A stretch of 62,077 nt of DNA from Candidatus Nanoarchaeia archaeon (GCA_035288985.1 DATDYP010000025.1:1-62077), one strand, 5' to 3'; shown: positions 6,118 to 52,933, counted from the stretch's first letter. Translations and numbers: made by a program. Notes: generated from the letters alone by a model not told the origin.

Positions 6118-8625
6118 TCAAAAACTATCCAAACTTTTCTGCTGCAAAATCTTTTTGACTTTCATTTTCCCAACCATTGCATCATCTTTCTCTAGTTCTG
6201 CTTGGATTTCCTTAGCCCGTTCAATAACGTCATCAGGCAGACCGGCCAGTTTTGCTACATGCACGCCATAGCTCTGATCAGTGCCTCCTTCAACCAGCTT
6301 ATGCAGAAAAACAACTTCTCCGTCAACTTCCTTGGCTGCGATATTATAATTTTTGATCCGTTCAAATTTTTCCGCCAGCTTGTTCAGGACATGATAATGT
6401 GTTGCAAACAGTGTTTTTGCTTTTATCGAATTGTAGATATGTTCAGCAACACTCCAGGCGATAGAGACGCCGTCAAAAGTGCTTGTTCCACGGCCAATTT
6501 CGTCGAGGATGATTAAACTACGTTCAGTAGCATTGTGCAGGATGGATGCAGTTTCATTCATCTCTACCATAAAAGTACTTTGCCCAGAACTAAGATCATC
6601 ATACGCTCCAACGCGAGTGAAGATCCGATCCACTATTCCTAGCACAGCTTCCTCAGCAGGAACGAAGGAACCTACCTGCGCCAGTAAAACAATCAAGGCA
6701 GTCTGGCGCATGATCGTACTTTTTCCTGCCATATTCGGGCCGGTAATGACCATCATCTCGTTTTCATGAAGGTAAATGTCGTTTGGAATAAAACGTGACT
6801 CAAAGGTTTCGATAACTGGATGCCGTCCATTTCTGATTTGGATAACTTTCTCATCAACAAGCGCTGGTTTACTATAATTATGCTCCATGGCTGTCTTTGC
6901 GAATGAGACAAGAACATCAAGAACAGCCAGGGTTGCTGCCGTTTCCTGCACTTCACTGGTTTTCTCTGCAATTTTGGCAAGTAATTCTTGAAACAGGGTA
7001 TACTCCAGTACATTGATTTTTTCTTCCGCGCCAAGGATTTTCTCTTCCTCGATCTTCAATTCTTCTGTAACATAGCGTTCGGAATTAGCCGTAGTCTGCT
7101 TCCTGATGTACTGTGAAGGAACAAGATGCACATTTTTTCTGGTAACTTCAATAAAATAACCAAACACTCTTGTATAGCCTATCTTTAAGGTGTTGATGCC
7201 GGTTTTTTCTTTTTCTTTCTCTTCCAGCTCCTGCAGGTAGCGCTTGCTGTTCAGTTTGATATCGCGCAAGGAGTCTAACTCCTGATTAAATCCGCGTTTA
7301 ATGATATTTCCTTCCCTGAGAGTGATGGGAACTTCTTCTTTCAGCGCATTTTTAAGAAGAGAATAAATATCCTGCAACGTCTCCATCTCTGCCAGTCTTG
7401 AAAGGAGCGGGTCATCAAAGGAGGATACCTTCTCCTTTATAGCTGGAAGCTGCTGCAATGACTTTTGTAAAGCTAGTAGATCACGTGGATTCGCATTTCC
7501 GTAGTTGACTCTGCTGATAAGCCGTTCTAGATCATATACGCCTTTAAGAAGGCCAATCAGCTCCTCCCTGCTGATGACGTTCTTATGCAGCACCTCGACA
7601 GCATTCAGCCGAGCTTGGATAGCTTCTTTTTGCAGGAGCGGTTCCTTAAGCCAGCGTTTCAATAATCGCGCGCCCATCACCGTGACAGTCATGTCCAGCA
7701 CCGACAACAAACTGCCCCGGCTTGTGCCATCTTTGATATTTCTCGACAATTCCAAATTGCGCAAGGTGCTGGAATCGAGGAGCATGGTTGTGGAATTATT
7801 GCGCAAAGTTATTTTTTTTAGATGGGTAAGAGAGTTTTTCTGCGTGTCAAGAAGATATTTCAACAGCGCCCCAGATACAGCAAGATTATTCTTCTGTTCC
7901 TCCAAACCGAGAGAATCGAGAGAGGAAAGCGCAAAATGATGGAGCAGAACTTCCCGGGCCTTGTCAACTTTAAAAAAATAATCCTCCAGAGTGTTAAGGA
8001 AACAGCCGCTGTTTTCAATTTTAGAGACAAGCTCAACATTGACGCGAAGACTTTCAGGAATAAGGCATTCGGAAGGATGAAGGCGAGTTATTTCACTCAT
8101 CAGCTGAGCCTGTGAATGAGCTGAGCTGGTCACAAATTCCCCTGTAGAAAGGTCACAGAAAGCAATGAAAAACGCTTCACCAAATGAAGTAACAGCCAGG
8201 ATATAATTGTTTTCCTTTTCCTCCAACAATGAAGATTCGATCACAGTTCCAGGAGTGACAATACGTACTAATCCCCGTTTCACCAGACCTTTTGCTGTTC
8301 TGGGATCTTCCAGCTGTTCAATGATCGCAACTTTGTGTCCTTTCTTGATCAATCTGCCTAGATATGTTTCTAAGGCATGGAACGGAACGCCTGCTAATGG
8401 TGCCTTTTTTTCATTCTTACCCCTGGAGGTGAGGGTTATTTCTAATTCCCTTGAAGCAGTGATAGCATCCCCATAGAACATCTCATAAAAATCACCCATC
8501 CTAAGCATGATTAAGCAGTCAGGATGCGCTCTCTTTGCTTCCAGATACTGCCTCATTCCCGGAGTAAGATGTTCTTCTGGAACATTAAGAATGTTTGTCT
8601 CTACCACTTTTTGGGATAGAATCAA
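6118..8625 (-). CDS. mutS: DNA mismatch repair protein MutS (MutS1)
   Basis: GDFYEMF mismatch-binding motif, Walker A GPNMAGKST, SGQSTFMVEM, LDEIGRGT, SYGVHVAKLAGLP. Confidence 0.97.
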   Translation of the reverse strand: MILSQKVVETNILNVPEEHLTPGMRQYLEAKRAHPDCLIMLRMGDFYEMFYGDAITASRELEITLTSRGKNEKKAPLAGVPFHALETYLGRLIKKGHKVAIIEQLEDPRTAKGLVKRGLVRIVTPGTVIESSLLEEKENNYILAVTSFGEAFFIAFCDLSTGEFVTSSAHSQAQLMSEITRLHPSECLIPESLRVNVELVSKIENSGCFLNTLEDYFFKVDKAREVLLHHFALSSLDSLGLEEQKNNLAVSGALLKYLLDTQKNSLTHLKKITLRNNSTTMLLDSSTLRNLELSRNIKDGTSRGSLLSVLDMTVTVMGARLLKRWLKEPLLQKEAIQARLNAVEVLHKNVISREELIGLLKGVYDLERLISRVNYGNANPRDLLALQKSLQQLPAIKEKVSSFDDPLLSRLAEMETLQDIYSLLKNALKEEVPITLREGNIIKRGFNQELDSLRDIKLNSKRYLQELEEKEKEKTGINTLKIGYTRVFGYFIEVTRKNVHLVPSQYIRKQTTANSERYVTEELKIEEEKILGAEEKINVLEYTLFQELLAKIAEKTSEVQETAATLAVLDVLVSFAKTAMEHNYSKPALVDEKVIQIRNGRHPVIETFESRFIPNDIYLHENEMMVITGPNMAGKSTIMRQTALIVLLAQVGSFVPAEEAVLGIVDRIFTRVGAYDDLSSGQSTFMVEMNETASILHNATERSLIILDEIGRGTSTFDGVSIAWSVAEHIYNSIKAKTLFATHYHVLNKLAEKFERIKNYNIAAKEVDGEVVFLHKLVEGGTDQSYGVHVAKLAGLPDDVIERAKEIQAELEKDDAMVGKMKVKKILQQKSLDSF

Positions 8626-34716: not shown

Positions 34717-36519
34717 ATGTCTGCAATACACCTTCTCGATGAAGATCTGATCAATAAGATTGCCGCAGGAGAGGTAGTTGAACGCCCGGCTTCAGTAGTA
34801 AAAGAGATAGTAGAAAATTCCCTGGATGCCCAGGCGACGAAGATAGATGTAGAAATACAAGATTCCGGCAAGAAGCTGATAAAAGTAAGTGATAACGGCG
34901 AAGGGATGAGCAAAGAAGATGTCTTAAAATCCGTCCTCAGGCATGCTACCAGCAAGATCCAGTCCGTGGAAGAATTATTTTCCATCACCACTCTCGGCTT
35001 TCGCGGCGAAGCCCTGGCCAGCATCGCAGCCGTATCACAACTTTCTATTACTTCAAAACAGAAAGGAAAACTAGAAGGGTTTACTATGGTACTAGAAAAC
35101 GGAGGTATCATCAATTCTGGAATCGCTGCAGCAGAAGAAGGTACAACTGTAGAAGTTCGTAATCTCTTTTTCAATACACCAGCAAGAAAAAAATTTCTCA
35201 AGACCGATGCCGTGGAGTTGCGGCATATCATTGATGTGGTCATTAACTACGCTCTAGCCAACCCGAAAGTTTCTTTCAAACTAACACACGAAGGGCACAC
35301 GCTGCTGCATTCGCCTGCTGTTGCTGATGCACGGAGCAATATTGCTTCTATCTACGGGATACAGCTGGCCAAGGAATTGCTGGAAGTGCAGTATCAAGAT
35401 GAGTTTGTAAAAATTAACGGCTTCATCGCCAAACCGTATCAAGTCAGGAATGATAAAACCCAGCAAGTTCTGTTGGTCAATAAAAGATGGGTCAAAAATA
35501 ATGACATCACCAAGGCTGTTTACGACGGCTATCATTCCATGTTGTTTGTGAATAAGCATCCTGTTTTTGTCTTGAATCTGGATCTTGATCCGCAGAAGAT
35601 TGACGTCAATGTCCATCCGCAGAAATCTGAAATCAAGATTGAACAGAAAGAACTGGTGATAAAGGCCGTAACTACGGCTGTTAACCAGACCTTGAGGAAG
35701 CATAACCTTATCCCGGTATTGGATGTTGAGTTTGAACAGCAAACCAGTTTTGGCATCCCTGCACAAAAGAAGGTAGAAAAACCTGCCTACAAATATCAGT
35801 TTGAAAAAGCCCAGCAGACCATGTTTGTGCGGGAAGAAGCCTTGCCATTGCAGGAAGCAGAGGAAGATAAAGAAGTATATCAGGAGCAGGAACCAGTAAT
35901 CATCCCGGAACAGGAAGCTGCTGCAGAAAGAACTGAAACATCAGCAATTCCAGCATTAAAAATTCTCGGACAGGTGCACAAGACCTTTTTCGTAGCCGAA
36001 ACGCCGGGAGGGATGATGTGTATCGATCAGCATGCTGCCCATGAACGGGTCTTGTATGAGCAGTTTATGAAGCAGTACATGAACAAGCAGATTGAGGTCC
36101 AGCATCTGCTGCAGGGCGAAATGATGGAATTTTCTCCGGCAGAGAAAATACTAGTAATGGAAAGAAAGGCAGAGCTAGAACGATACGGCTTCAGGCTGGA
36201 AGAGTTTGGCGACAATGCTTTTGTCCTTAAGACAGTGCCGTCATTGCTAGGCAGGATACAGCCGGCAGAAATAACCTACGAAATAGTCAACAAGCTGCAG
36301 CAGGAGAAAGGTTCATTACAGGAGATACAGGAAGAGATCATCACCAGGATGGCCTGTCGTGCTGCAGTGATGGCTGGAGAAGTTCTAAGCATTTTTCAAA
36401 TTAATGCCATCTTAGATGATCTGTCGTTGTGCCAACATCCCTATACCTGCCCGCATGGACGCCCGACTATGATCAAGACCTCGTATGAGGAGTTGGAGAA
36501 GAAGTTTAAACGGAAGTAA
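34717..36519 (+). CDS. mutL: DNA mismatch repair endonuclease MutL
   Basis: KIAAGEVVERPASVVKE, DNGEG, TLGFRGEALASI, DVNVHPQK, endonuclease motifs DQHAAHERVLYE and CPHGRP. Confidence 0.97.
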   Translation: MSAIHLLDEDLINKIAAGEVVERPASVVKEIVENSLDAQATKIDVEIQDSGKKLIKVSDNGEGMSKEDVLKSVLRHATSKIQSVEELFSITTLGFRGEALASIAAVSQLSITSKQKGKLEGFTMVLENGGIINSGIAAAEEGTTVEVRNLFFNTPARKKFLKTDAVELRHIIDVVINYALANPKVSFKLTHEGHTLLHSPAVADARSNIASIYGIQLAKELLEVQYQDEFVKINGFIAKPYQVRNDKTQQVLLVNKRWVKNNDITKAVYDGYHSMLFVNKHPVFVLNLDLDPQKIDVNVHPQKSEIKIEQKELVIKAVTTAVNQTLRKHNLIPVLDVEFEQQTSFGIPAQKKVEKPAYKYQFEKAQQTMFVREEALPLQEAEEDKEVYQEQEPVIIPEQEAAAERTETSAIPALKILGQVHKTFFVAETPGGMMCIDQHAAHERVLYEQFMKQYMNKQIEVQHLLQGEMMEFSPAEKILVMERKAELERYGFRLEEFGDNAFVLKTVPSLLGRIQPAEITYEIVNKLQQEKGSLQEIQEEIITRMACRAAVMAGEVLSIFQINAILDDLSLCQHPYTCPHGRPTMIKTSYEELEKKFKRK

Positions 36520-45266: not shown

Positions 45267-46493
45267 ATGAAAAAAGTGATAGTATTTCTTTTATTCTTAG
45301 TTTTGATTATGGTAGGTTGCGTTCAACAACCAGAAGAAACTAAATCGGATAACCAACCAGTAACTGAAGAAGCAATACCTGAACCTGCTGAAGATTCTTT
45401 AACAGATGATGCAGAAGGATATGACCCAGAGAAAGAACTATCTGTAGAAGAACGGCACTGGAAGAGAGTATTTGCTAAAGCATTTGAAACAGCTGAATGT
45501 CCTGAGCCTCGTGATCCGAGTAGTTTGCCAGAGGGGTATTATAAGGGTCCAATGATAGATACACATATCCATCTACAAAACTTACCGGGCGGTGCGCCAG
45601 GATTCCCTGATGATTACTATACGGGAGATAATTTAGGAATAAAGCGCAGCATGGATGAATGGGTTTGTATGATCAATGTTGAAGGCACTAAACAAGTGTG
45701 GGGTTTCTTTCCAGTTGCTGAGCCTATAGTGCAAGAATCTGTAGACGTAGTTAAGATGACTTTAGAAAAATATCCTAATCTTTTTGTCCCTTTTATCAAT
45801 CCGCCAGGCCAGGTTGAAGCTACAGTCGCTGCAGAAGAACTGGAGATGATGTTAAATTTGGAACACGGATTATTCAAAGGTTATGGTGAAATAGGTTTAT
45901 ATGGAAATCCTAATTCTCCGCCACTTTCACCAACTTCTACAATATTGATGGGAATTTATCCAGTAATCGAGAAGCATAAATTAGTTGTCTATTTCCATCT
46001 TGGCGAGGGTCAAAAAGAATCATATCAGGATGTTGCTAGAGCAAATCCAAATATTACTTTTGTTTTCCATGGGGGTAATTTGTTTGATATCAGTAAGACT
46101 CAAGCAGGTATATCGCATGATGAAAAAGTTTTAGTGCTTATAGAAGAATTACTTTACAATAATCCAAATATTTATTATACGGTGAATGAACTTTATGGAG
46201 GGGATTGGTTATTAGAGCCAGGCAGAAGCAAAGAGAAATTTTTAGAAAATTTTGCGGATTATGAAGCTTTACTTGAGATCGATCTTCCCATGTGGAAATG
46301 GTTTATTGAAAGACATCCGGATCAAGTGTTATGGGGCACAGATAGGGGAGGTCCAGCTATTTGGGATAAAGATCCTGAGGTTGCATTGACTTTGAATAAT
46401 TATACCCGTGTATTTATTGACAGGCTTGATCCTGCTGTTCAGGAAAATTTTGCCTATAAGAATGCAGAAAGAATAGTGGGAAAAATACAATAA
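45267..46493 (+). CDS. Putative lipoprotein amidohydrolase (TIM-barrel metallohydrolase)
   Basis: Lipobox MVGC; IDTHIH, GYGEIGLY, YFHL, WGTD. Confidence 0.75.
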   Translation: MKKVIVFLLFLVLIMVGCVQQPEETKSDNQPVTEEAIPEPAEDSLTDDAEGYDPEKELSVEERHWKRVFAKAFETAECPEPRDPSSLPEGYYKGPMIDTHIHLQNLPGGAPGFPDDYYTGDNLGIKRSMDEWVCMINVEGTKQVWGFFPVAEPIVQESVDVVKMTLEKYPNLFVPFINPPGQVEATVAAEELEMMLNLEHGLFKGYGEIGLYGNPNSPPLSPTSTILMGIYPVIEKHKLVVYFHLGEGQKESYQDVARANPNITFVFHGGNLFDISKTQAGISHDEKVLVLIEELLYNNPNIYYTVNELYGGDWLLEPGRSKEKFLENFADYEALLEIDLPMWKWFIERHPDQVLWGTDRGGPAIWDKDPEVALTLNNYTRVFIDRLDPAVQENFAYKNAERIVGKIQ

Positions 46494-46494
46494 C

Positions 46495-47760
46495 ATGAAA
46501 ATAATGATAGTTCTATTTTTGCTCGGAGTAATTTTTTTAAGCAGCTGCTCTATTAGTGAACAGATCCAGGAAAACAAAGAAATAATTGAGAATATTGATA
46601 TTGAGCCTAAAGAGGAGGCAGTTGTCCAGAAACCTGCTGAACTAGAAAATGAATCTCAAATCATTCTTGAACCTGAACAGCCAGAAATAATTCTTTCTCC
46701 TGAAGAACAACTCTGGCGAAAAAGAATAGAAAAAGCCCTAGCACCAACTCCTTGTCCAGATATTGTTAAATTAGAATACCCTGCCTCTTATTACCACGGC
46801 CCCTTAATTGATACACATCTACATATTCCTTCAATACCTGATTGGTCAGCTGAAGAGGAAGAAGATTTGCCAACCGATCAGGCACCAGAAGGCAGGTTCG
46901 GTGGTCCACAAGCACTTCTGGGCTGGAATGTAAAAATGAGTGAGATTGCCTGTACCTTACAACGTGAAGGTACGCACAACAATTTTGCCTTCTTCCCTGC
47001 TTACGAAGGAGAAATCTCTCTCTATCAGCTTGAGATCTGGAAGAGAACTATGCAAGAATATCCAGATCAGTTTACTCCTTTCATCATGTCTTCCGGAAAT
47101 GATGATGATCCTAATGGCTTCCCAACTGTTGATGCTGATACTCTGAAAGAAATGCTGGCTGTTTACCCTGGTTTGTTTGACGGCTACGGTGAAATAGGTT
47201 TGTACGCTCGTGAAAATGGCGGATCTCCAGAACTTCCTCCTGATTCCAAGAGACTTTTAGAGATTTATCCCCTTATCAAAGAAAACAACTTAGTTATCTA
47301 CTTCCATCTTGGCGACGGCCATAAAGATAATTTTGAAAAAGTCTTGAAACAATATCCAGATATTACCTTCATCTGGCATGGAGACCAACTCACTGTAGAT
47401 GAGGTTAAGAACATACTCAGTAAATATCCTAATGCTTACTACGGAATCGATGAATTTTTTGGCGGGGAAAGAGAGATTTTTGAACTTTATGTAGGGAAAA
47501 GTAAAGAAGAGTATCTGAAAGCAGCCAATACCAAGTTTGATAAGATTATCCAGCAAGCGATAAGTCACTGGAAATCCCTAATTGAACAGTATCCTGATCA
47601 AGTTATTTGGGGTACTGATCGCGGCGATGCAGTGTGGAATTACGACCAGGATGTAGGGCAAATGCAGGTGAAAATTGCAAGAGCTTTTATCGGAAAGCTT
47701 GATCCTGTAGTGCAAGAAAAGTTTGCCTATAAGAATGCAGAACGATTATTAAAAGAATAG
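46495..47760 (+). CDS. Putative lipoprotein amidohydrolase, tandem paralog
   Basis: Lipobox LSSC; IDTHLH, GYGEIGLY, YFHL, IWHG, WGTD; C-terminus nearly identical to the upstream gene. Confidence 0.75.
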   Translation: MKIMIVLFLLGVIFLSSCSISEQIQENKEIIENIDIEPKEEAVVQKPAELENESQIILEPEQPEIILSPEEQLWRKRIEKALAPTPCPDIVKLEYPASYYHGPLIDTHLHIPSIPDWSAEEEEDLPTDQAPEGRFGGPQALLGWNVKMSEIACTLQREGTHNNFAFFPAYEGEISLYQLEIWKRTMQEYPDQFTPFIMSSGNDDDPNGFPTVDADTLKEMLAVYPGLFDGYGEIGLYARENGGSPELPPDSKRLLEIYPLIKENNLVIYFHLGDGHKDNFEKVLKQYPDITFIWHGDQLTVDEVKNILSKYPNAYYGIDEFFGGEREIFELYVGKSKEEYLKAANTKFDKIIQQAISHWKSLIEQYPDQVIWGTDRGDAVWNYDQDVGQMQVKIARAFIGKLDPVVQEKFAYKNAERLLKE

Positions 47761-47796
47761 AGCAAGATTTTTAAAACAGAATAAGAATTATCTTCT

Positions 47797-48930
47797 ATGC
47801 AATACCAAGTCATTTCCTTTTACAAATATGTAGCAGTACAAAACCCTGAAGAATTACGAGATTCACTTAGAAAATACTGCCAAGACCAGCAAATTCTAGG
47901 AAGGATCCTGGTTGGAAAAGAAGGCATCAATGGAGCCGTTTCCGGAAAAAAAGAACAAATACAACTATTCAAACAATTTCTTAAAGGAAATTCTCTATTT
48001 ACCGGGATGACGTTCCGAGAACAGGACTATCATCAAAATACTTATCACAAATTAGTTATTCGGGTAAGAGATGAAATCTGCGCCTTCGGAGCAGAGGTCA
48101 ATGTAGCCAAGAACAAAGGACAGCATCTTTCACCGCAGAAACTCAAAGGATGGTATGAACAGAACAAAGATTTTGTGATTGTTGATGCGCGAAATGAGCA
48201 TGAGTTTGAAGTTGGCAGATTCAAGAATGCAGTTAATCTTAATATTAAGAATTTTAGAGAATTTCCTGCAACGGTACAAAAATTAGAGGCAATAAAAAAC
48301 AAAAAGATAGTTCTCTACTGCACAGGCGGCATCCGCTGCGAGAAAGCCTCTGCTTACTTGAAAGAGCAAGGATTTCCTGAAGTGTATCAAGTGGAAGGCG
48401 GGATTATAAATTATGTTAATCAATACCCAAACACTTTCTGGGAAGGCGGTTTGTTCGTCTTTGATGACCGCTTAGTTTCTGATGTAGCAAGCCCGATTAC
48501 GTTCTGCAAACATTGCCAGAAAGACTGTGAACAGTACGTAAACTGCCACAATCTAGACTGCGATAAACTTACAATAATGTGTGGTGAATGCCAACATAGG
48601 ATGAATAACACCTGTTCTGAAGAATGTAAGACTGCACCTAGACAAAGAAAAATCAGAAACACAAAAGAAGATAGGAAAGTAATAGGTGTCGTGGAAAACT
48701 ATTATCCTAAATCTAAAGTAGCATTGATTAAAACTATTGAGCCTATTCTTCTCAACACCAACATTTCTTTTTATGGAAAAACGACAGAAAACGTCTTTGA
48801 GAGAATAACTGAAATGAGGGATGATAGTGGCAATGAAATTACTATGGCGGAAGCAGAACAATATATAACTATCCCTATCAAAGAAAAAATTAGAAAGAAT
48901 GATAAAGTTCTTGTAGAGGCGAGGATATGA
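47797..48930 (+). CDS. trhO: Oxygen-dependent tRNA uridine(34) hydroxylase-like rhodanese protein with extra C-terminal beta-barrel
   Basis: ISFYKY, GRILVGKEGINGAVSG, DARNEHEFEVGRF, LYCTGGIRCEKAS, GGIINY, FVFDDR, NCHNLDC. Confidence 0.85.
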   Translation: MQYQVISFYKYVAVQNPEELRDSLRKYCQDQQILGRILVGKEGINGAVSGKKEQIQLFKQFLKGNSLFTGMTFREQDYHQNTYHKLVIRVRDEICAFGAEVNVAKNKGQHLSPQKLKGWYEQNKDFVIVDARNEHEFEVGRFKNAVNLNIKNFREFPATVQKLEAIKNKKIVLYCTGGIRCEKASAYLKEQGFPEVYQVEGGIINYVNQYPNTFWEGGLFVFDDRLVSDVASPITFCKHCQKDCEQYVNCHNLDCDKLTIMCGECQHRMNNTCSEECKTAPRQRKIRNTKEDRKVIGVVENYYPKSKVALIKTIEPILLNTNISFYGKTTENVFERITEMRDDSGNEITMAEAEQYITIPIKEKIRKNDKVLVEARI

Positions 48931-49502
48931 AGAAAAGGCTCATTGGATTAGCAGCCCTGCTCGCTGCTTGTTCACCACAGAAAGAAATCCTAACCCCGCC
49001 AGTAATACCAGAAATAAAATTAGAAGAAAGAACGGCACCTGAAGTTGATCCAGAACCTCTGGAAGAGAAGGAGAAAGTATCACCTCACAACGAATACCGC
49101 AACTTAGGAGAACAATGCGGCCAAATCCAGCTGGAAAGAGGGACGTATCCAGTAAAGAAGGAGGGCTGGGATGCCATATATACGGTACAGACTTGGGATT
49201 CTGGAAAAAATTGCTACCTTGCTCTATCAAACCCAGAGCTTTCGGTTGAAATGAGGGATGACGACTGTGATAATACGATCGATCGCATAGGCGTAGAAGA
49301 ATACCCCCTCGTAGAATACCGTATCGGTCTTCGCGGAGACCGCATCGACCTTAGTCTTGACCGTGCTGCATTATCGAGGCTTGGTTACACAAAGCCTTTT
49401 GACAAGATCCTTGAAGAAGCGCAGCAATTTGCCTGTCCGGAAAACAAAAGACACTTAGAAGAATATCTTTTGAAAAGAGTCCTAGAAATTGGGAATAAAT
49501 AA
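48927..49502 (+). CDS. Putative lipoprotein
   Basis: MKKRLIGLAALLAAC lipobox. Confidence 0.6.
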   Translation: MKKRLIGLAALLAACSPQKEILTPPVIPEIKLEERTAPEVDPEPLEEKEKVSPHNEYRNLGEQCGQIQLERGTYPVKKEGWDAIYTVQTWDSGKNCYLALSNPELSVEMRDDDCDNTIDRIGVEEYPLVEYRIGLRGDRIDLSLDRAALSRLGYTKPFDKILEEAQQFACPENKRHLEEYLLKRVLEIGNK

Positions 49503-49524
49503 AAATAAGAAAATAACTCCTTAC

Positions 49525-49959
49525 CTACGGCAAAAAGCTCAATCCGCCTACAATCGCTCCCATCAACAGCAAGTTCACCAAATCATAGGCTGTATTAAGA
49601 AAGTATAAATTCCAGGACTTACCCTCCCAGAAAACGCTGCCTAAAGATTTAGTAGCTACAAAGCCTAGCCAGATCAAAGCTCCAACAAGTGCACCACCCA
49701 AAGCATTCCATAAAACTGGGGTTGCTCCGGTAATGTCTACAAAATCTTTAACTAGAAAAGCTAAAACAGCCGCTGTCACCAGTGAAGCCACAAAACTCAT
49801 CGAATACGTTTTAGCCATGCCTTTCTGCTTGGCTTTCTCCATATCCTTCTCAGTAAACTTCATCAAAGCCATCCATTTCTTGCCAAATAAAGGCCCATAC
49901 CACAAAAAGCCCAAGGCATGGGATACCACAGCTGCAATTAAAACTTCCAAGTATACCAT
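49525..49959 (-). CDS. DUF1761-like membrane protein
   Basis: LGFLWYGPLFGKKWMAL, four transmembrane segments, FLNTAYDLV. Confidence 0.8.
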   Translation of the reverse strand: MVYLEVLIAAVVSHALGFLWYGPLFGKKWMALMKFTEKDMEKAKQKGMAKTYSMSFVASLVTAAVLAFLVKDFVDITGATPVLWNALGGALVGALIWLGFVATKSLGSVFWEGKSWNLYFLNTAYDLVNLLLMGAIVGGLSFLP

Positions 49960-50074
49960 CTTTTATCACGCTCCAGATATTTTTGATGATAGAGGAAGAG
50001 AAGTGTTATAAGTCTTTCTCTACCAGCCTTCTCTTAGAAAGATTTATAAGTCTGCTTTTTATCACCACTAGAAA

Positions 50075-50683
50075 ATGACGGAAGATTCTCAAGAGGCCAT
50101 AGGACTCGGGACTCGCTTCTCTGACGAGTACAGAAAACACTATAGTAAGATCTACTCCCAGCTGATGCGAAAAACCGGAAACAAGACTGTGGCTGAAGAT
50201 TTAACCCAAGAAACATTCAGGAAGGCATTTGAAAGTCTTAACACCTTCAGAGAGGGAGCTAGTTTTGGCACCTGGCTCTATGGCATAGCCCATAATGTTG
50301 CTCTCGATTATTTCCGAGACAGAAGGATGCAATCAGCATTTTATAATGGAGCTATGGAAGGTCTGCGGCAAAAAGACGGTCATCACAGAAGTTCTGATGA
50401 AAAAAGTCAACGCTGGTTCCTGGGCGGGCTGGAGCAGGTTCTTGCCGTTGTCAGCAGCACTCCTGAACAGGATGCAATAACCTGCGAGGAAGTTGCTGAA
50501 GCACGGAAATATATCATGACAGCTCTTTCTGAAAAGCTGCGACATGCATACTCACTGCATCTTCAAGGATATACTGATCGGGAAATTGCAGAACAGCTTG
50601 GAATGAAAGAACAGGCAGTAACGACACGAATCAGCAGGGCACGACAGCAACTTCGCAACTACCACCAGGAGCAGTCAGCATGA
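50075..50683 (+). CDS. ECF-type sigma-70-family protein
   Basis: Region 2 AEDLTQETFRKAF...SFGTWLYGIAHNVALDYFR; region 4 HTH GYTDREIAEQLGMKEQAVTTRISRARQQLR. Confidence 0.85.
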   Translation: MTEDSQEAIGLGTRFSDEYRKHYSKIYSQLMRKTGNKTVAEDLTQETFRKAFESLNTFREGASFGTWLYGIAHNVALDYFRDRRMQSAFYNGAMEGLRQKDGHHRSSDEKSQRWFLGGLEQVLAVVSSTPEQDAITCEEVAEARKYIMTALSEKLRHAYSLHLQGYTDREIAEQLGMKEQAVTTRISRARQQLRNYHQEQSA

Positions 50684-51228
50684 AACAAACCATCATCGCA
50701 CGTCTTCAACAACTTGAACAGAAATCGATCAAAAGAGGCATACCTATCCTTGGCTCGCAAAAAGGCGCCTGGCTATTGCAGCAAGTGCAAAAACTGAAAC
50801 CAAAACGTATTCTGGAATTAGGAACTGCTAACGGCTATAGTGGCTGCATTCTAGGCAGTGAAGGAGCTGACCTAACAACCGTTGAAATTGATGACAAGAT
50901 CGCTGAAGAAGCAGTTGTGAATTTTGCTGCCTTTGATATCAAAGCGAACATCATCCTTGGCGATGGCGTGGAAATCGTAGGTGATCTGGCCAGGCAAAAA
51001 AAAGAGTATTATGATCTCATTTTTATTGACTTCTCAAAAAAGAATTATATCAAAGTCCTGGAACAGTGCATCAAACTGGTTCGACAAGACGGCTTGATCA
51101 TCGCTGACAATATCAGTTTTGAAAACTGCCAAGATTTCAAAGAAGCAGTGCTTGCACATCCAAAGCTGGAAACAGAAATCATCAGCATCAAAGACGGGCT
51201 GAGCTGCAGCCGAAAGAGAGAGGTATGA
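50680..51228 (+). CDS. Class I O-methyltransferase (TrmR/YrrM-like)
   Basis: GIPIL, KRILELGTANGYSG, DLIFID, GLIIADN. Confidence 0.8.
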   Translation: MKQTIIARLQQLEQKSIKRGIPILGSQKGAWLLQQVQKLKPKRILELGTANGYSGCILGSEGADLTTVEIDDKIAEEAVVNFAAFDIKANIILGDGVEIVGDLARQKKEYYDLIFIDFSKKNYIKVLEQCIKLVRQDGLIIADNISFENCQDFKEAVLAHPKLETEIISIKDGLSCSRKREV

Positions 51229-51923
51229 ATAAGAATACAATAAGCATGCTGGTTTTTCTTGCAGGATGCGCAGAAACACCCCTTCCTACCCCACCAACAC
51301 CGGAAGTCATCATTCCTGAACGTATTGTCACTAATAAAGATTTAAAGCAGGAACCTACAGACGTTCTTGCACAACAGATCTTCCATGATCTTGAGCATTT
51401 GACAACAGGTGACGAAGCGGGAGTACGACTGATCAAACATTATAATGTTGATACAGAAAAGTGGGAAGAAAAACCAGTCTATCAACTGCAAAGATCAGCG
51501 GTGAAGCTCCCTTCTTATCACTCAGATATCATCGTTTCAGTAAGGGATGTTTATCACGACGGAACAACAGACTTAGAAATCAGAAGAGTTGCTAAAAAGG
51601 AGATCAGAGTCTACCGCGATCTTCCGCCATTCGGCACCCTGGATTCATATGAAGAATGCCGCCGAAGACCGTATCATGTCGTGGTTTGTGTCGGCCAATC
51701 CTGTTCGGGAAGTGATAAAACAGAATACTTCGCCTGCAACGGCAAGGAAATCAGCCCAAAAGTGAAAGAAGCCTTCAACACCCTGGTTGCCCGCGTCCAT
51801 AACAGCCTGAATGAAGCAACTCCTCTGGATAAGCAGGATTATCATTACATGGAACTGGAGTTTATCTTAGAAAGGAGTGAGGCGGTAATTAATCTTGCTG
51901 GAACCAAGAGTCCGTATAAGTGA
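51225..51923 (+). CDS. Putative lipoprotein
   Basis: MNKNTISMLVFLAGC lipobox followed by a Pro-rich linker. Confidence 0.6.
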   Translation: MNKNTISMLVFLAGCAETPLPTPPTPEVIIPERIVTNKDLKQEPTDVLAQQIFHDLEHLTTGDEAGVRLIKHYNVDTEKWEEKPVYQLQRSAVKLPSYHSDIIVSVRDVYHDGTTDLEIRRVAKKEIRVYRDLPPFGTLDSYEECRRRPYHVVVCVGQSCSGSDKTEYFACNGKEISPKVKEAFNTLVARVHNSLNEATPLDKQDYHYMELEFILERSEAVINLAGTKSPYK

Positions 51924-51964: not shown

Positions 51965-52933
51965 TTAAAGATATTGATAATAGACTTCAAAGAATTTTCG
52001 ATACGTTTCTTTTGCTTTTTCTATTCCGAATCTTAGTAAAGGGATATAACGATCTGTGTCTGCTGATTGTAAGGCTTTGATATATTTATTACGATGAGTA
52101 TTCCTGATAATGATAGGATAATATCCTTTTCTGATCAAGATGTGATTTAAGAGCATTCTACCCACTCTTCCATTTCCATCTGCAAAAGGATGAATCTGCT
52201 CAAATTTATGATGAAACCTAAATGCCAATTCTAAAGGATAAACCTTATTTTCCGTTTCCCAGTACCATTTTAAAAGATTCTTAATCTCCCGAGAAACATT
52301 CTCTGGAGCAGTTAATGTAATAGCTCTGCCTAAAATAATATTCGGCAATTTTTTATAGCCAACGCGCTCATCAACGTTTTTCATAAGCTTCTTATGCAGT
52401 TCAATAATAAATTCTTCCGTTATTTCCTTCTTCGAGTCAAATAACTTTGAAAAAATTTCATAAGAATTTTTGGCATCATAAACTTCTCTCAGATCAGCAG
52501 AAGCGACTATTTTATTCTCAAAAACAATTTCAGAAAAGTTCTTTAGAGTGAGGGAATTGCCCTCCAAGGCGTTTGATTCAAACACGAAATTAGCCACGAA
52601 TCTTTTTTTAACGTCTTCCCAATCTTTTTTATTCAATGCTCTTCGAATTTCTTTATATTTTAGGTTCATTTCTTCGATCTTTTTTATTTCTTCAATAGTA
52701 AGGGGGAAGTCCAAAGAATACTTTTTTTTAGCGTCTGCTACTAAAAAGGAAACAATTTTTTTATCTAGTTCTAAGGCAAATTTTTTCTTTTCTTTCTCAA
52801 TTTGTTCTGGAGATATTCCTGATTTTTTCCCCAAGAACTTGCTGATTTTGTGCACTTTCTTTCCGATCCGGATAGATTTATCTAAGTAAAGGTAAACCTC
52901 TCCCTTTGCCTTTCGTTTCTGGATAAAGACCAT
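51965..52933 (-). CDS. Fic-domain protein
   Basis: Catalytic HPFADGNGRVGR and inhibitory-helix-like ESNALEGN. Confidence 0.92.
   Translation of the reverse strand: MVFIQKRKAKGEVYLYLDKSIRIGKKVHKISKFLGKKSGISPEQIEKEKKKFALELDKKIVSFLVADAKKKYSLDFPLTIEEIKKIEEMNLKYKEIRRALNKKDWEDVKKRFVANFVFESNALEGNSLTLKNFSEIVFENKIVASADLREVYDAKNSYEIFSKLFDSKKEITEEFIIELHKKLMKNVDERVGYKKLPNIILGRAITLTAPENVSREIKNLLKWYWETENKVYPLELAFRFHHKFEQIHPFADGNGRVGRMLLNHILIRKGYYPIIIRNTHRNKYIKALQSADTDRYIPLLRFGIEKAKETYRKFFEVYYQYL

What the first reader, a model, noticed from the sequence alone, without database searches (positions are those of the whole stretch)
47797..51228. Candidate bacterial ho5U to mo5U wobble-modification pathway in an archaeon
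Seen: a trhO-like gene and, about 1.8 kb downstream, an O-methyltransferase with TrmR/YrrM-like GIPIL and LELGTANGYS. Established: in Bacillus, TrhO or TrhP makes 5-hydroxyuridine at tRNA position 34 and TrmR methylates it; to my knowledge xo5U34 is not a recognised archaeal modification, and TrhO needs O2. Inference: this archaeon may expand wobble decoding the bacterial way and experiences oxygen.
Basis: partly seen in the sequence, partly recalled or inferred. Interest (0 to 1): 0.65.

Follow-up and report, generated by a model that had tools for sequence, protein, structure and literature searches.

The report
Archaeal TrhO plus TrmR-like methyltransferase pair
A tiny DPANN (Woesearchaeales) archaeon carries the two enzymes that bacteria use to turn the wobble uridine of tRNA into 5-methoxyuridine, both in altered forms and linked as an operon in many relatives, so this "bacterial" tRNA modification probably also exists in archaea, though nobody has measured it.

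Summary
Both genes are real and sit on an archaeal (Woesearchaeales, DPANN) contig.

**Hydroxylase (47797-48930).** This is a TrhO orthologue. It scores above NCBIfam's curated cut-off, has an intact CTGGIRC catalytic loop, and its model matches the B. subtilis TrhO-tRNA structure. It also carries an extra C-terminal beta-barrel that is the C-domain of TrhP-type U32 proteins.

**Methyltransferase (50680-51228).** This is a minimal 182-aa cation-dependent O-methyltransferase.
- Its four best solved relatives are TrmR-type.
- In trees its clade nests inside the TrmR-like radiation (99/98 support), away from generic catechol/CCoA-type enzymes.
- It has lost TrmR's 22-residue tRNA-binding loop (R178/R181) and Arg86/Arg90.

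**Linkage.**
- In 34 of 76 related loci TrhO lies just upstream on the same strand; in 14 the gap is 37 nt or less, or the genes overlap.
- 62% of genomes with the methyltransferase have TrhO, against 11% in the order.
- 27 of 28 of the remaining genomes have a U32 protein.

**Weaknesses.**
- A complete TrhO+/OMT+ genome keeps all three Ala and all three Pro isoacceptors.
- Oxygen exposure was not established.
- No chemistry exists for this system.

**Verdict.** A probable archaeal ho5U-to-mo5U pathway in a new structural variant. Confidence is about 0.6.

The parts
47768..47776 (+). TATA-like box (TTTTTAAAA) about 21-29 nt upstream of the trhO ATG; suggests an archaeal promoter and a leaderless or short-leader mRNA
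   Evidence: Read directly from the sequence. Not tested further.
47797..48930 (+). trhO-like gene, 377 aa: tRNA uridine(34) hydroxylase homologue with an added C-terminal domain
   Evidence: NF001133 TrhO 257 bits against a cut-off of 170. PDB 9j5o 'tRNA uridine(34) hydroxylase' E 4e-62. AF2 model pLDDT 85. Foldseek hit to 9j5o (B. subtilis TrhO with tRNA-Ala) E 1e-30.
47803..48078 (+). UPF0176_N (acylphosphatase-like) domain, residues 3-94, including the conserved basic strand K85/R89/R91
   Evidence: Pfam PF17773 E 2.6e-26. K85 and R91 are invariant in 20 homologues.
48133..48414 (+). Rhodanese domain, residues 113-206
   Evidence: Pfam PF00581 E 4e-16.
48319..48339 (+). Active-site loop C175-T-G-G-I-R180-C181 (CXGGXR motif)
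   Evidence: C175, T176, G177, G178, R180 and C181 are invariant in alignment A2. The equivalent E. coli residues C200, T201, G203 and R205 are essential (PMC6599085).
48442..48630 (+). Cys-rich Rhodanese_C domain, residues 216-278
   Evidence: Pfam PF12368 E 1.4e-15. Seven invariant Cys between positions 237 and 277.
48673..48915 (+). Extra C-terminal beta-barrel, residues 293-373: U32-peptidase (TrhP-type) C-terminal domain fused to TrhO
   Evidence: Pfam PF16325 E 1.2e-4, below the cut-off, but precomputed on most homologues. All-beta in the model. Foldseek to 4he6/4he5, the C-terminal domain of a Geobacillus U32 peptidase: E 1e-7, TM(target) 0.89-0.92.
48927..49502 (+). 191-aa lipoprotein-like ORF whose start overlaps the trhO stop by 4 nt; no family match
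   Evidence: It did not appear among the sixteen largest neighbour clusters.
49525..49959 (-). DUF1761 membrane protein on the opposite strand, separating the trhO unit from the sigma-OMT unit
   Evidence: Pfam PF08570 E 1.9e-30. Found between trhO and the OMT in 9 related loci.
50043..50049 (+). TATA-like box (TTTATAA) 26-32 nt upstream of the sigma-like gene's ATG; likely promoter of the sigma-OMT-ORF232 unit
   Evidence: Read from the sequence.
50075..50683 (+). ECF sigma-70-like gene (regions 2 and 4) whose stop overlaps the OMT start by 4 nt
   Evidence: Pfam Sigma70_r2 E 1.7e-17 and r4_2 E 1e-10. TIGR02937 83 bits against 42.9. Homologues lie directly upstream of the OMT in 8-11 related loci.
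50680..51228 (+). Minimal TrmR-like SAM-dependent O-methyltransferase, 182 aa; candidate ho5U34 methyltransferase
   Evidence: Pfam Methyltransf_3. Family profile against PDB: 5zw3 TrmR 98 bits, 8k1f 93, 3ntv 85, 2gpy 80, next best 69. Nested in the TrmR-like clade at 99/98 support. AF2 pLDDT 95.
50737..50751 (+). GIPIL (residues 20-24), equivalent to the TrmR H34-V35-P36 loop that contacts U34
   Evidence: Alignment to 5zw3. I21, P22 and I23 are invariant. TrmR paper.
50812..50841 (+). SAM-binding motif LELGTANGYS (residues 45-54)
   Evidence: Nine of its ten positions are invariant in 34 homologues (T49 is nearly so). Aligns to TrmR's LEIGTAIGYS with G62/S68.
51028..51111 (+). Metal/catalytic residues D117, K120, D143 and N144 (TrmR D133, K136, D159, N160). 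TrmR's tRNA-binding loop would follow N144 but is replaced by 4 residues (ISFE)
51225..51923 (+). 232-aa lipoprotein-like ORF whose start overlaps the OMT stop by 4 nt; no family match

Best explanation
The window belongs to a Woesearchaeales (DPANN, phylum Nanoarchaeota) archaeon. Gene 47797-48930 encodes a true TrhO-family rhodanese-type RNA hydroxylase. It has acquired the C-terminal beta-barrel of TrhP-type U32 proteins, the other, O2-independent bacterial ho5U34 enzyme. Gene 50680-51228 encodes a stripped-down member of the TrmR-like radiation of cation-dependent O-methyltransferases. It keeps the SAM site, the metal triad and the catalytic Lys, but has lost TrmR's 22-residue tRNA-clamping loop. 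The most likely mechanism has two steps. First, TrhO hydroxylates C5 of the wobble uridine (U34) of tRNAs that read four-codon (NYN) boxes, using O2 as in E. coli. Second, the methyltransferase uses SAM to convert ho5U34 to 5-methoxyuridine (mo5U34), as B. subtilis TrmR does. The ancestral arrangement in this lineage is a two-gene trhO-OMT operon; in this genome it has been split by inserted genes. Relatives that lack TrhO may supply ho5U through a TrhP-like U32 protein. Shown here: family membership, catalytic residues, fold, phylogenetic position, conserved linkage and co-occurrence. Inferred: tRNA U34 as the substrate, mo5U as the product, dependence on O2, and any role of the added C-domain in tRNA binding.
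For: TrhO:
- NF001133 scores 257 bits against a cut-off of 170.
- PDB 9j5o E 4e-62 and 4f67 E 3e-55.
- The CTGGIRC loop is invariant, and these residues are essential in E. coli.
- Foldseek hits the TrhO-tRNA-Ala complex at E 1e-30 and the U32 C-domain 4he6 at TM 0.9.

Methyltransferase:
- The four best PDB matches are all TrmR-type, and the family profile widens the gap (98/93/85/80 bits against 69 or less).
- In a careful ML tree the short clade (100/100) nests in the long-loop TrmR-like clade (99/98), apart from LW-G-type OMTs and a COMT (quick tree).
- D117, K120, D143 and N144 are retained.

Linkage:
- TrhO is the commonest neighbour of the OMT: 34 of 76 loci, always upstream on the same strand. 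Fourteen have gaps of -4 to 37 nt.
- This holds down to the deepest branch of the subclade, P0248, where the genes overlap by 14 nt, and in a 3.4-kb contig.

Co-occurrence:
- 46 of 74 OMT+ genomes have TrhO, against 27 of 251 in the order (Fisher p 3e-18, not corrected for phylogeny).
- 27 of 28 TrhO-less OMT+ genomes have a U32 protein, against about 50% background. One same-family example scores 460 bits full-length on the TrhP model.

Other:
- No true CmoB in the family, only partial hits of 38 bits or less.
- Both units have archaeal TATA boxes.
- TrhO occurs in 61 of 401 genomes of the phylum.
Against: - The OMT lacks every residue the TrmR paper lists as TrmR-specific for tRNA binding. 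R86 and R90 are Ile, and the 164-185 loop with R178/R181 is deleted. How it would hold tRNA is unknown.
- 28 of 74 OMT+ genomes, including a closed 1.3-Mb genome, have no TrhO.
- Most TrhO+ genomes of the order have no close OMT.
- In this window the two genes lie in separate transcription units.
- A sister subclade of short OMTs sits next to dCMP-deaminase/MazG-like genes, not TrhO, so the clade may not have one substrate.
- No isoacceptor loss is seen in a complete TrhO+/OMT+ genome.
- No Fe/Mn SOD was found in this genome, and many Woesearchaeota are regarded as anaerobes.
- The structure search does not separate TrmR from other class I OMTs.
- There are no nucleoside-level or expression data.
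Confidence: 0.6

Rival explanations
1. TrhO makes ho5U34 in tRNA, but the short O-methyltransferase acts on something else, such as a free 5-hydroxypyrimidine nucleotide, another small molecule or a protein. On this view the linkage reflects shared regulation or inherited synteny, and ho5U itself is the final modification.
For: - TrmR's tRNA-binding loop and Arg residues are missing.
- 38% of OMT+ genomes lack TrhO.
- Most TrhO+ genomes lack a close OMT.
- The sister short subclade lies beside dCMP-deaminase/MazG-like nucleotide-metabolism genes.
- The fold is indistinguishable from small-molecule OMTs.
Against: - Operonic coupling with gaps of -4 to 37 nt occurs in 14 loci, across 47-62% TrhO identity.
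- TrhO is by far the commonest neighbour.
- TrhO is enriched six-fold in OMT+ genomes.
- Nearly all TrhO-less OMT+ genomes have a U32 protein.
- The clade is nested among TrmR-type enzymes.
- A 1-Mb symbiont genome is unlikely to keep a secondary-metabolite OMT.
Confidence: 0.17
2. The pair modifies a different RNA target, for example a uridine or cytidine in rRNA or another tRNA position. The added U32 C-domain would redirect the hydroxylase, and the OMT would methylate the resulting 5-hydroxypyrimidine.
For: - The domain architecture differs from all characterised TrhOs.
- U32 proteins also hydroxylate rRNA: RlhA makes ho5C2501 (PMC6599085).
- This genome's own U32 protein has an RlhA-like architecture, U32 plus DUF3656.
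- The OMT lacks the anticodon-stem-loop contacts of TrmR.
Against: - The TrhO core, including the basic beta-strand and the catalytic loop, is conserved.
- The core superposes on the tRNA-bound B. subtilis enzyme.
- The fused domain is the TrhP/YrrO type (PF16325, 4he6), not the RlhA DUF3656 type.
- No methylated 5-hydroxypyrimidine is known in rRNA (my own knowledge).
Confidence: 0.13
3. The two genes are non-functional or functionally unrelated imports from bacteria. On this view the first is a rhodanese sulfurtransferase and the second a generic catechol-type OMT, and they sit near each other by chance or because the assembly is chimeric.
For: - NCBI names the homologues 'rhodanese-related sulfurtransferase' and 'class I SAM-dependent methyltransferase'.
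- The neighbourhood holds other bacterial-looking genes, namely an ECF sigma gene and lipoprotein-like ORFs.
Against: - Both proteins are strongly conserved across many genomes; the 34 aligned OMT homologues share 58-72% identity with the window's protein.
- Both have intact active sites.
- The pair occurs in a closed archaeal chromosome, CP010425.1.
- GC content is uniform across the contig and genome.
- Archaeal promoters precede both units.
- The linkage statistics argue against chance.
Confidence: 0.04

Closest known systems
TrhO (E. coli YceA, B. subtilis YbfQ; PDB 9J5O, 4F67): O2-dependent tRNA U34 5-hydroxylase
   Same: Same three-domain core (UPF0176_N, rhodanese, Cys-rich Rhodanese_C). 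Same CTGGIRC catalytic loop with all residues shown essential in E. coli. About 36-40% identity. The predicted fold superposes on the tRNA-bound enzyme.
   Different: Archaeal host. It has an extra roughly 85-residue C-terminal beta-barrel of the U32-peptidase C-terminal type, which none of the characterised bacterial TrhOs I compared carries. Activity and O2 dependence are untested.
TrmR (B. subtilis YrrM; PDB 5ZW3/5ZW4) and other TrmR-type entries (8K1F, 3NTV, 2GPY): SAM-dependent ho5U34 to mo5U34 methyltransferase
   Same: Methyltransf_3 fold, SAM motif, and the Asp/Asp/Asn metal triad plus Lys. The (V/I)PI loop that contacts U34 is kept. These are the best sequence matches, the clade is nested in the TrmR-like radiation, and the gene is linked to a ho5U hydroxylase gene (in B. 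subtilis, yrrM-yrrN-yrrO).
   Different: 182 aa rather than about 217. The 22-residue loop that becomes ordered on tRNA binding (R178, R181) is deleted, and Arg86/Arg90 are Ile. About 30% identity. It is linked to trhO rather than to trhP1/trhP2.
TrhP / YrrO (peptidase U32 family) and its C-terminal domain (Pfam PF16325; PDB 4HE5/4HE6)
   Same: The added C-terminal domain of the archaeal TrhO has this fold (TM 0.9) and a weak PF16325 match. U32 proteins, one with a full-length TrhP-like match, are present in nearly all relatives that have the OMT but lack TrhO.
   Different: Here the domain is attached to the oxygen-dependent rhodanese enzyme, not to a U32 catalytic domain. This genome's own U32 protein has the RlhA-like (DUF3656) architecture.
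CmoA/CmoB pathway (cmo5U34 of Gram-negative bacteria)
   Same: It also elaborates ho5U34.
   Different: No CmoB orthologue was found in this genome or in 40 family members, only generic SAM-fold hits of 38 bits or less. A methoxy end product is therefore more likely than an oxyacetate one.

Membership tests
TrhO (NCBIfam NF001133, UPF0176) | Score above the curated equivalog cut-off | tested here: met
   257 bits against a cut-off of 170.
TrhO (NCBIfam NF001133, UPF0176) | UPF0176_N + rhodanese + Rhodanese_C architecture | tested here: met
   All three Pfam domains are above their cut-offs.
TrhO (NCBIfam NF001133, UPF0176) | CXGGXR active-site loop with the Cys, Thr, second Gly and Arg that are essential in E. 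coli (C200, T201, G203, R205) | tested here: met
   C175-T-G-G-I-R180 is invariant in 20 homologues. Essentiality comes from PMC6599085.
TrhO (NCBIfam NF001133, UPF0176) | Basic beta-sheet surface needed for tRNA (E. coli K112, R114) | tested here: inconclusive
   A conserved basic strand HKLVxRVR is present, with K85 and R91 invariant. I did not make a residue-exact alignment to E. coli.
TrhO (NCBIfam NF001133, UPF0176) | Fold equivalent to tRNA-bound TrhO | tested here: met
   Foldseek to 9j5o_A: E 1.3e-30, TM(target) 0.71.
TrhO (NCBIfam NF001133, UPF0176) | O2-dependent formation of ho5U34 in tRNA | not testable with these tools
   Needs biochemistry or nucleoside mass spectrometry.
TrmR (tRNA ho5U34 O-methyltransferase, subgroup of Pfam PF01596) | Methyltransf_3 fold with the SAM motif and the Asp/Asp/Asn metal site plus Lys | tested here: met
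   PF01596 E 8e-19. D117, K120, D143 and N144 align to TrmR D133, K136, D159 and N160.
TrmR (tRNA ho5U34 O-methyltransferase, subgroup of Pfam PF01596) | Closer to TrmR-type proteins than to other PF01596 members (score and phylogeny) | tested here: met
   The four top PDB hits are all TrmR-type. The clade is nested in the TrmR-like clade at 99/98 support. Caveat: the tree's taxa were chosen by similarity to the query, and most carry no names.
TrmR (tRNA ho5U34 O-methyltransferase, subgroup of Pfam PF01596) | Arg86 and Arg90, said to be conserved specifically in TrmR orthologues | tested here: not met
   Both are Ile in the window protein and hydrophobic or variable across its family. These Arg are also not universal among other TrmR-type entries: 8k1f has Ile86 and 3ntv has Met90.
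TrmR (tRNA ho5U34 O-methyltransferase, subgroup of Pfam PF01596) | tRNA-binding loop 164-185 with Arg178 and Arg181 | tested here: not met
   The loop is replaced by 4 residues (ISFE). Long-loop relatives have 21-24 residues rich in Arg/Lys/His.
TrmR (tRNA ho5U34 O-methyltransferase, subgroup of Pfam PF01596) | Genomic association with a ho5U34 hydroxylase gene | tested here: met
   TrhO lies upstream on the same strand in 34 of 76 loci. 46 of 74 genomes are TrhO+. 27 of 28 of the rest have a U32 protein.
TrmR (tRNA ho5U34 O-methyltransferase, subgroup of Pfam PF01596) | SAM-dependent methylation of ho5U34 to mo5U34 | not testable with these tools
   Needs an enzyme assay or complementation.
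Peptidase U32 C-terminal domain (Pfam PF16325), as in TrhP/YrrO | Sequence match above Pfam's gathering score | tested here: inconclusive
   22.6 bits against a cut-off of 28.2 in the window protein. The domain is precomputed on most homologues.
Peptidase U32 C-terminal domain (Pfam PF16325), as in TrhP/YrrO | Same fold as the solved domain | tested here: met
   Foldseek to 4he6/4he5: E 1e-7 to 2e-7, TM(target) 0.89-0.92 over 81-89 columns.
CmoB (Pfam PF08003) | Full-length match in the genome | tested here: not met
   Only partial hits of 24-38 bits to profile positions about 101-265 of 315, in the window's genome and in 13 of the 40 family members searched.

The most novel reading that the evidence does not exclude
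Woesearchaeales and other Nanoarchaeota run a genuine archaeal xo5U34 wobble system built as a two-protein machine. The TrhP-type C-domain fused to TrhO would provide the tRNA grip that the loop-less methyltransferase has lost, so hydroxylase and methyltransferase would act as a complex on the same bound tRNA. Closely related lineages would swap the O2-dependent TrhO for a TrhP-like U32 enzyme according to their oxygen niche. That would make the gene pair a genomic marker of oxygen exposure in uncultured DPANN archaea.
Probability: 0.15. Interest if true: 0.78.

Novelty: new variant of a known kind. Interest (0 to 1): 0.6.

Why it matters
xo5U34 modifications (ho5U, mo5U, cmo5U) are textbook bacterial wobble modifications. 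The discovery paper and a later review assign TrhO homologues to bacteria and eukaryotes only. I found no paper linking TrhO to DPANN archaea.

A conserved trhO-OMT operon, present in about 15% of sampled Nanoarchaeota genomes, would extend this decoding chemistry to Archaea.

It would also show two new protein solutions: a TrhO/TrhP-domain chimera, and a minimal TrmR lacking its tRNA loop.

The idea is directly testable by complementing existing E. coli and B. subtilis mutants.

If TrhO is as O2-dependent as in E. coli, the TrhO-versus-TrhP-like alternation among close relatives would give a handle on oxygen exposure in organisms that cannot yet be grown.

Tried and rejected
1. **tRNA gene set of the window's genome.** Only 13 Rfam tRNA hits and 7-8 ARAGORN calls were found. 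The MAG is 79% complete and most tRNAs carry introns, so it cannot be used to test for isoacceptor loss. I used the closed relative AR15 (TrhO+/OMT+) and a closed TrhO-less control instead. ARAGORN anticodon calls for intron-bearing genes were often implausible. Only the Ala and Pro boxes are securely complete, and they show no loss.
2. **Foldseek of the OMT model.** All class I OMTs score alike (SafC, Leptospira OMT, TrmR, norbelladine OMT). It does not discriminate.
3. **pI and charge of the OMT.** Uninformative, because TrmR fragments are acidic too.
4. **Oxygen markers.** The genome has no Fe/Mn SOD. I did not search other markers, and notes on the genome held nothing relevant.
6. **Names of nearest long-loop and deep short-clade proteins.** Almost none carry names, so the donor lineage is unresolved.
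7. **Contamination or chimera.** Rejected. GC is uniform, synteny with archaeal genes holds in many MAGs, and the pair occurs in a closed chromosome.
8. **Papers for PDB 8K1F and 9J5O.** None found in the library.

Full report
**Observation**

The two ORFs exist as described: 47797-48930 (+, 377 aa) and 50680-51228 (+, 182 aa), 1,749 nt apart. The quoted motifs GIPIL and LELGTANGYS are at residues 20-24 and 45-54 of the second protein. Most of their positions are invariant among 34 homologues.

Several genes lie between the two:
- a 191-aa lipoprotein-like ORF whose start overlaps the trhO stop;
- an opposite-strand DUF1761 gene;
- an ECF sigma-70-like gene whose stop overlaps the methyltransferase start.

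In this genome the two genes therefore belong to different transcription units. Each unit is preceded by an archaeal-looking TATA box 21-32 nt before a start codon.

**Host**

- The contig carries the archaeal S13-S4-S11-RpoD cluster, Cdc48 and TruD.
- The 0.99-Mb, 32-contig genome is 79% complete and has an archaeal SSU rRNA and uniform GC.
- Homologues of both proteins are named Woesearchaeota, Nanoarchaeota or Nanoarchaeia.

'An archaeon' is correct: a DPANN archaeon of the order Woesearchaeales. A chimeric assembly is excluded. The same gene pair lies in many MAGs with the same archaeal neighbours, and in the closed chromosome CP010425.1.

**The hydroxylase**

The protein passes NCBIfam's equivalog model for oxygen-dependent TrhO (257 bits, cut-off 170). 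It has the UPF0176_N, rhodanese and Rhodanese_C domains. It matches PDB 9j5o (tRNA uridine(34) hydroxylase) at E 4e-62.

The CXGGXR loop is C175-T-G-G-I-R180-C181 and is invariant in 20 homologues. The corresponding E. coli residues C200, T201, G203 and R205 are essential (PMC6599085).

An AlphaFold model (pLDDT 85) superposes on the cryo-EM structure of B. subtilis TrhO bound to tRNA-Ala (E 1e-30).

Residues about 293-373 form an extra all-beta domain.
- Pfam's Peptidase_U32_C model matches weakly (E 1.2e-4, below cut-off).
- That domain is precomputed on most homologues.
- Foldseek places it on the crystal structures of the C-terminal domain of a Geobacillus U32 peptidase (4he6/4he5; TM 0.89-0.92, E 1e-7).

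U32 proteins with this C-terminal motif are TrhP/YrrO, the O2-independent ho5U34 enzymes. The archaeal protein is therefore a TrhO with a TrhP-type appendage.

**The methyltransferase**

It is a Methyltransf_3 protein.

*Sequence ranking.* Against the PDB its best matches are B. subtilis YrrM/TrmR (5zw3), 2gpy, 8k1f ('tRNA 5-hydroxyuridine methyltransferase') and 3ntv. Norbelladine and catechol OMTs come only after these. With a profile of 34 family members the gap widens: 98, 93, 85 and 80 bits against 69 or less.

*Representative library.* A profile search of 1.84 billion representatives returned first about 30 short proteins like the query. After these came mostly proteins with a 21-24-residue basic loop like TrmR's.

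*Trees.*
- In a quick ML tree the short clade is sister to the long-loop clade that holds all four TrmR-type PDB chains (joint support 98).
- In a careful tree on 62 sequences the short clade (100/100) is nested inside the long-loop TrmR-like clade (99/98). It is separate from LW-G-type OMTs and a COMT.
- Caveat: taxa were picked by similarity to the query and most are unnamed.

*What is kept.* The protein retains the SAM motif, the metal triad and the Lys (D117, K120, D143, N144).

*What is lost.* It lacks what the TrmR paper identifies as the tRNA grip. Arg86 and Arg90 are Ile. The 164-185 loop, which becomes ordered on tRNA binding and carries Arg178/Arg181, is replaced by four residues.

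It is therefore a derived, minimal relative of TrmR and not a canonical member. Structure search cannot separate it from other class I OMTs.

**Linkage**

I fetched 80 loci encoding relatives from species-representative genomes. Of the 80 loci, 76 have an OMT at 48-68% identity, and almost all of those are from Woesearchaeota or Nanoarchaeota MAGs.

An unbiased clustering of all ORFs within 5 kb showed TrhO as by far the commonest neighbour. It occurs in 34 of 76 loci, always upstream and on the same strand.

| Gap between trhO and the OMT | Loci |
|---|---|
| -4 to 37 nt (operonic) | 14 |
| 200-1,086 nt | 9 |
| 1.3-3.9 kb | 11 |

(Gap counts.)

Direct adjacency dominates among the more divergent members. 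It is also seen in a 3.4-kb contig and at the deepest branch of the subclade (14-nt overlap, archaeal ribosomal context). The ancestral state therefore looks like a bicistronic trhO-OMT operon. The window's lineage has insertions: the sigma-like gene, DUF1761 and the lipoprotein-like ORFs.

**Co-occurrence**

- TrhO is in 27 of 251 genomes sampled from the order and 61 of 401 from the phylum, including other orders. It is absent from the four model archaea among the controls.
- Among the 40 OMT+ genomes without an adjacent TrhO that I searched, 12 have it elsewhere. In total 46 of 74 OMT+ genomes (62%) have TrhO, against an 11% background (Fisher p 3e-18, not phylogeny-corrected).
- Of the 28 OMT+ genomes without TrhO, 27 have a peptidase-U32 protein, against about 50% in TrhO-less genomes of the order.
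- In one member of the window's own family that protein aligns full-length to the TrhP model (460 bits, cut-off 534) and has the U32_C domain. Others are more divergent.

This mirrors the bacterial logic in which TrmR works downstream of either TrhO or TrhP, but it is correlative. The window genome's own U32 protein has the RlhA-like U32+DUF3656 architecture. No real CmoB exists in the family, which favours a methoxy end product.

*Isoacceptor loss.* The window genome yields only 13 tRNA hits, so I used closed genomes. AR15 (TrhO+/OMT+) has 36 Rfam tRNA hits, and among the securely called ones are:
- Ala GGC, CGC and UGC;
- Pro GGG, CGG and UGG;
- Thr GGU, with a less certain CGU call.

A TrhO-less control looks similar. 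There is thus no sign that G34/C34 isoacceptors were lost.

'Experiences oxygen' rests only on the E. coli mechanism.

*Sister subclade.* A sister subclade of short OMTs is not next to TrhO but next to dCMP-deaminase/MazG-like genes. Substrate uniformity across the whole short clade cannot be assumed.

**Literature**

- The discovery paper reports trhO orthologues 'in bacteria and eukaryotes' and never mentions archaea.
- A 2020 review assigns ho5U to domains B and E.
- None of the 20 best-ranked papers in a search combining TrhO, mo5U and xo5U with DPANN terms held both TrhO and a DPANN term.
- Earlier AI notes of this scan record similar trhO-OMT pairs in other archaeal and bacterial genomes. 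I treat these as leads only. They suggest the trhO/PF01596 pairing recurs widely, which tempers the novelty of the pairing itself.

**Verdict**

The pathway reading is the best explanation (about 0.6), on four grounds:
- orthology of TrhO;
- TrmR-clade membership of the OMT;
- conserved operonic linkage;
- co-occurrence with a hydroxylase.

It is a new variant: an archaeal host, a TrhO fused to a TrhP-type C-domain, and a loop-less TrmR relative. The mode of tRNA recognition by the OMT, the decoding consequence and the oxygen inference remain open, and there is no chemical evidence.

Noticed in passing
window 50075-50683 (+): An intact-looking ECF sigma-70 family gene (regions 2 and 4) lies in an archaeon. 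It has a TATA box 26-32 nt upstream, and its stop overlaps the OMT start. Homologues at 23-38% identity sit in the same position, directly upstream of the OMT, in 8-11 related Woesearchaeal loci. What a sigma factor does without a bacterial RNA polymerase is unexplained.
   Followed up: partly
window 48673-48915 (TrhO residues 293-373): A domain fusion joins the C-terminal beta-barrel of TrhP-type U32 proteins to the O2-dependent TrhO. Within the order and phylum, TrhO reading frames of about 260-330 aa (apparently no C-domain) and about 366-404 aa (with it) both occur.
   Followed up: partly
G000 contig C18:15821-18028 (-): A 735-aa peptidase-U32 protein has a U32 + DUF3656 (collagenase-like) architecture, as in the rRNA ho5C hydroxylase RlhA. 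U32 proteins are in about half of the Woesearchaeales genomes sampled, as about 400-450-aa and about 600-820-aa forms.
   Followed up: partly
L144:3386-4791 and L145:194-1351: A sister subclade of short OMTs (37-39% identity to the window's) lies next to a two-domain dCMP/cytidine-deaminase-like gene, and in one case a MazG-like gene, instead of TrhO. This hints at a different, possibly nucleotide-level, substrate. One record is labelled Acidobacteriota.
   Followed up: no
G000 whole genome; G251 (CP010425.1): Very few tRNA genes are detectable in the window's genome: 13 by Rfam and 7-8 by ARAGORN. Most hits are 85-150 nt long, which implies introns. ARAGORN's anticodon calls for these are often implausible (e.g. 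'Ser aga', 'Stop tta').
   Followed up: partly
G247:C4:21647-22174 (same family as the window's genome): The OMT orthologue (63% identity) has one in-frame TGA. That genome lacks TrhO but has a TrhP-like U32 protein. This could be a pseudogene, a sequencing error or recoding.
   Followed up: no
window 48927-49502 and 51225-51923 (+): Two ORFs with no family match have N-termini like bacterial lipoprotein signals (…LLAACS…, …FLAGCA…). The start of each overlaps the stop of the preceding gene (trhO, OMT) by 4 nt.
   Followed up: no
window 45267-46493 and 46495-47760 (+): Tandem paralogous amidohydrolase-2 genes with lipoprotein-like signal peptides lie immediately upstream of trhO.
   Followed up: no
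window 6118-8625 (-) and 34717-36519 (+): Bacterial-type MutS and MutL mismatch-repair genes are present in this DPANN archaeon.
   Followed up: no
window 51965-52933 (-): A Fic/DOC-family protein (related to 'mobile mystery protein B') lies just downstream of the OMT unit.
   Followed up: no
loci L020, L022, L024, L025 and others: Many MAG records that carry this Woesearchaeal gene pair and its archaeal neighbours are titled 'uncultured Methanosarcinales archaeon'. These are probably mislabelled bins.
   Followed up: no
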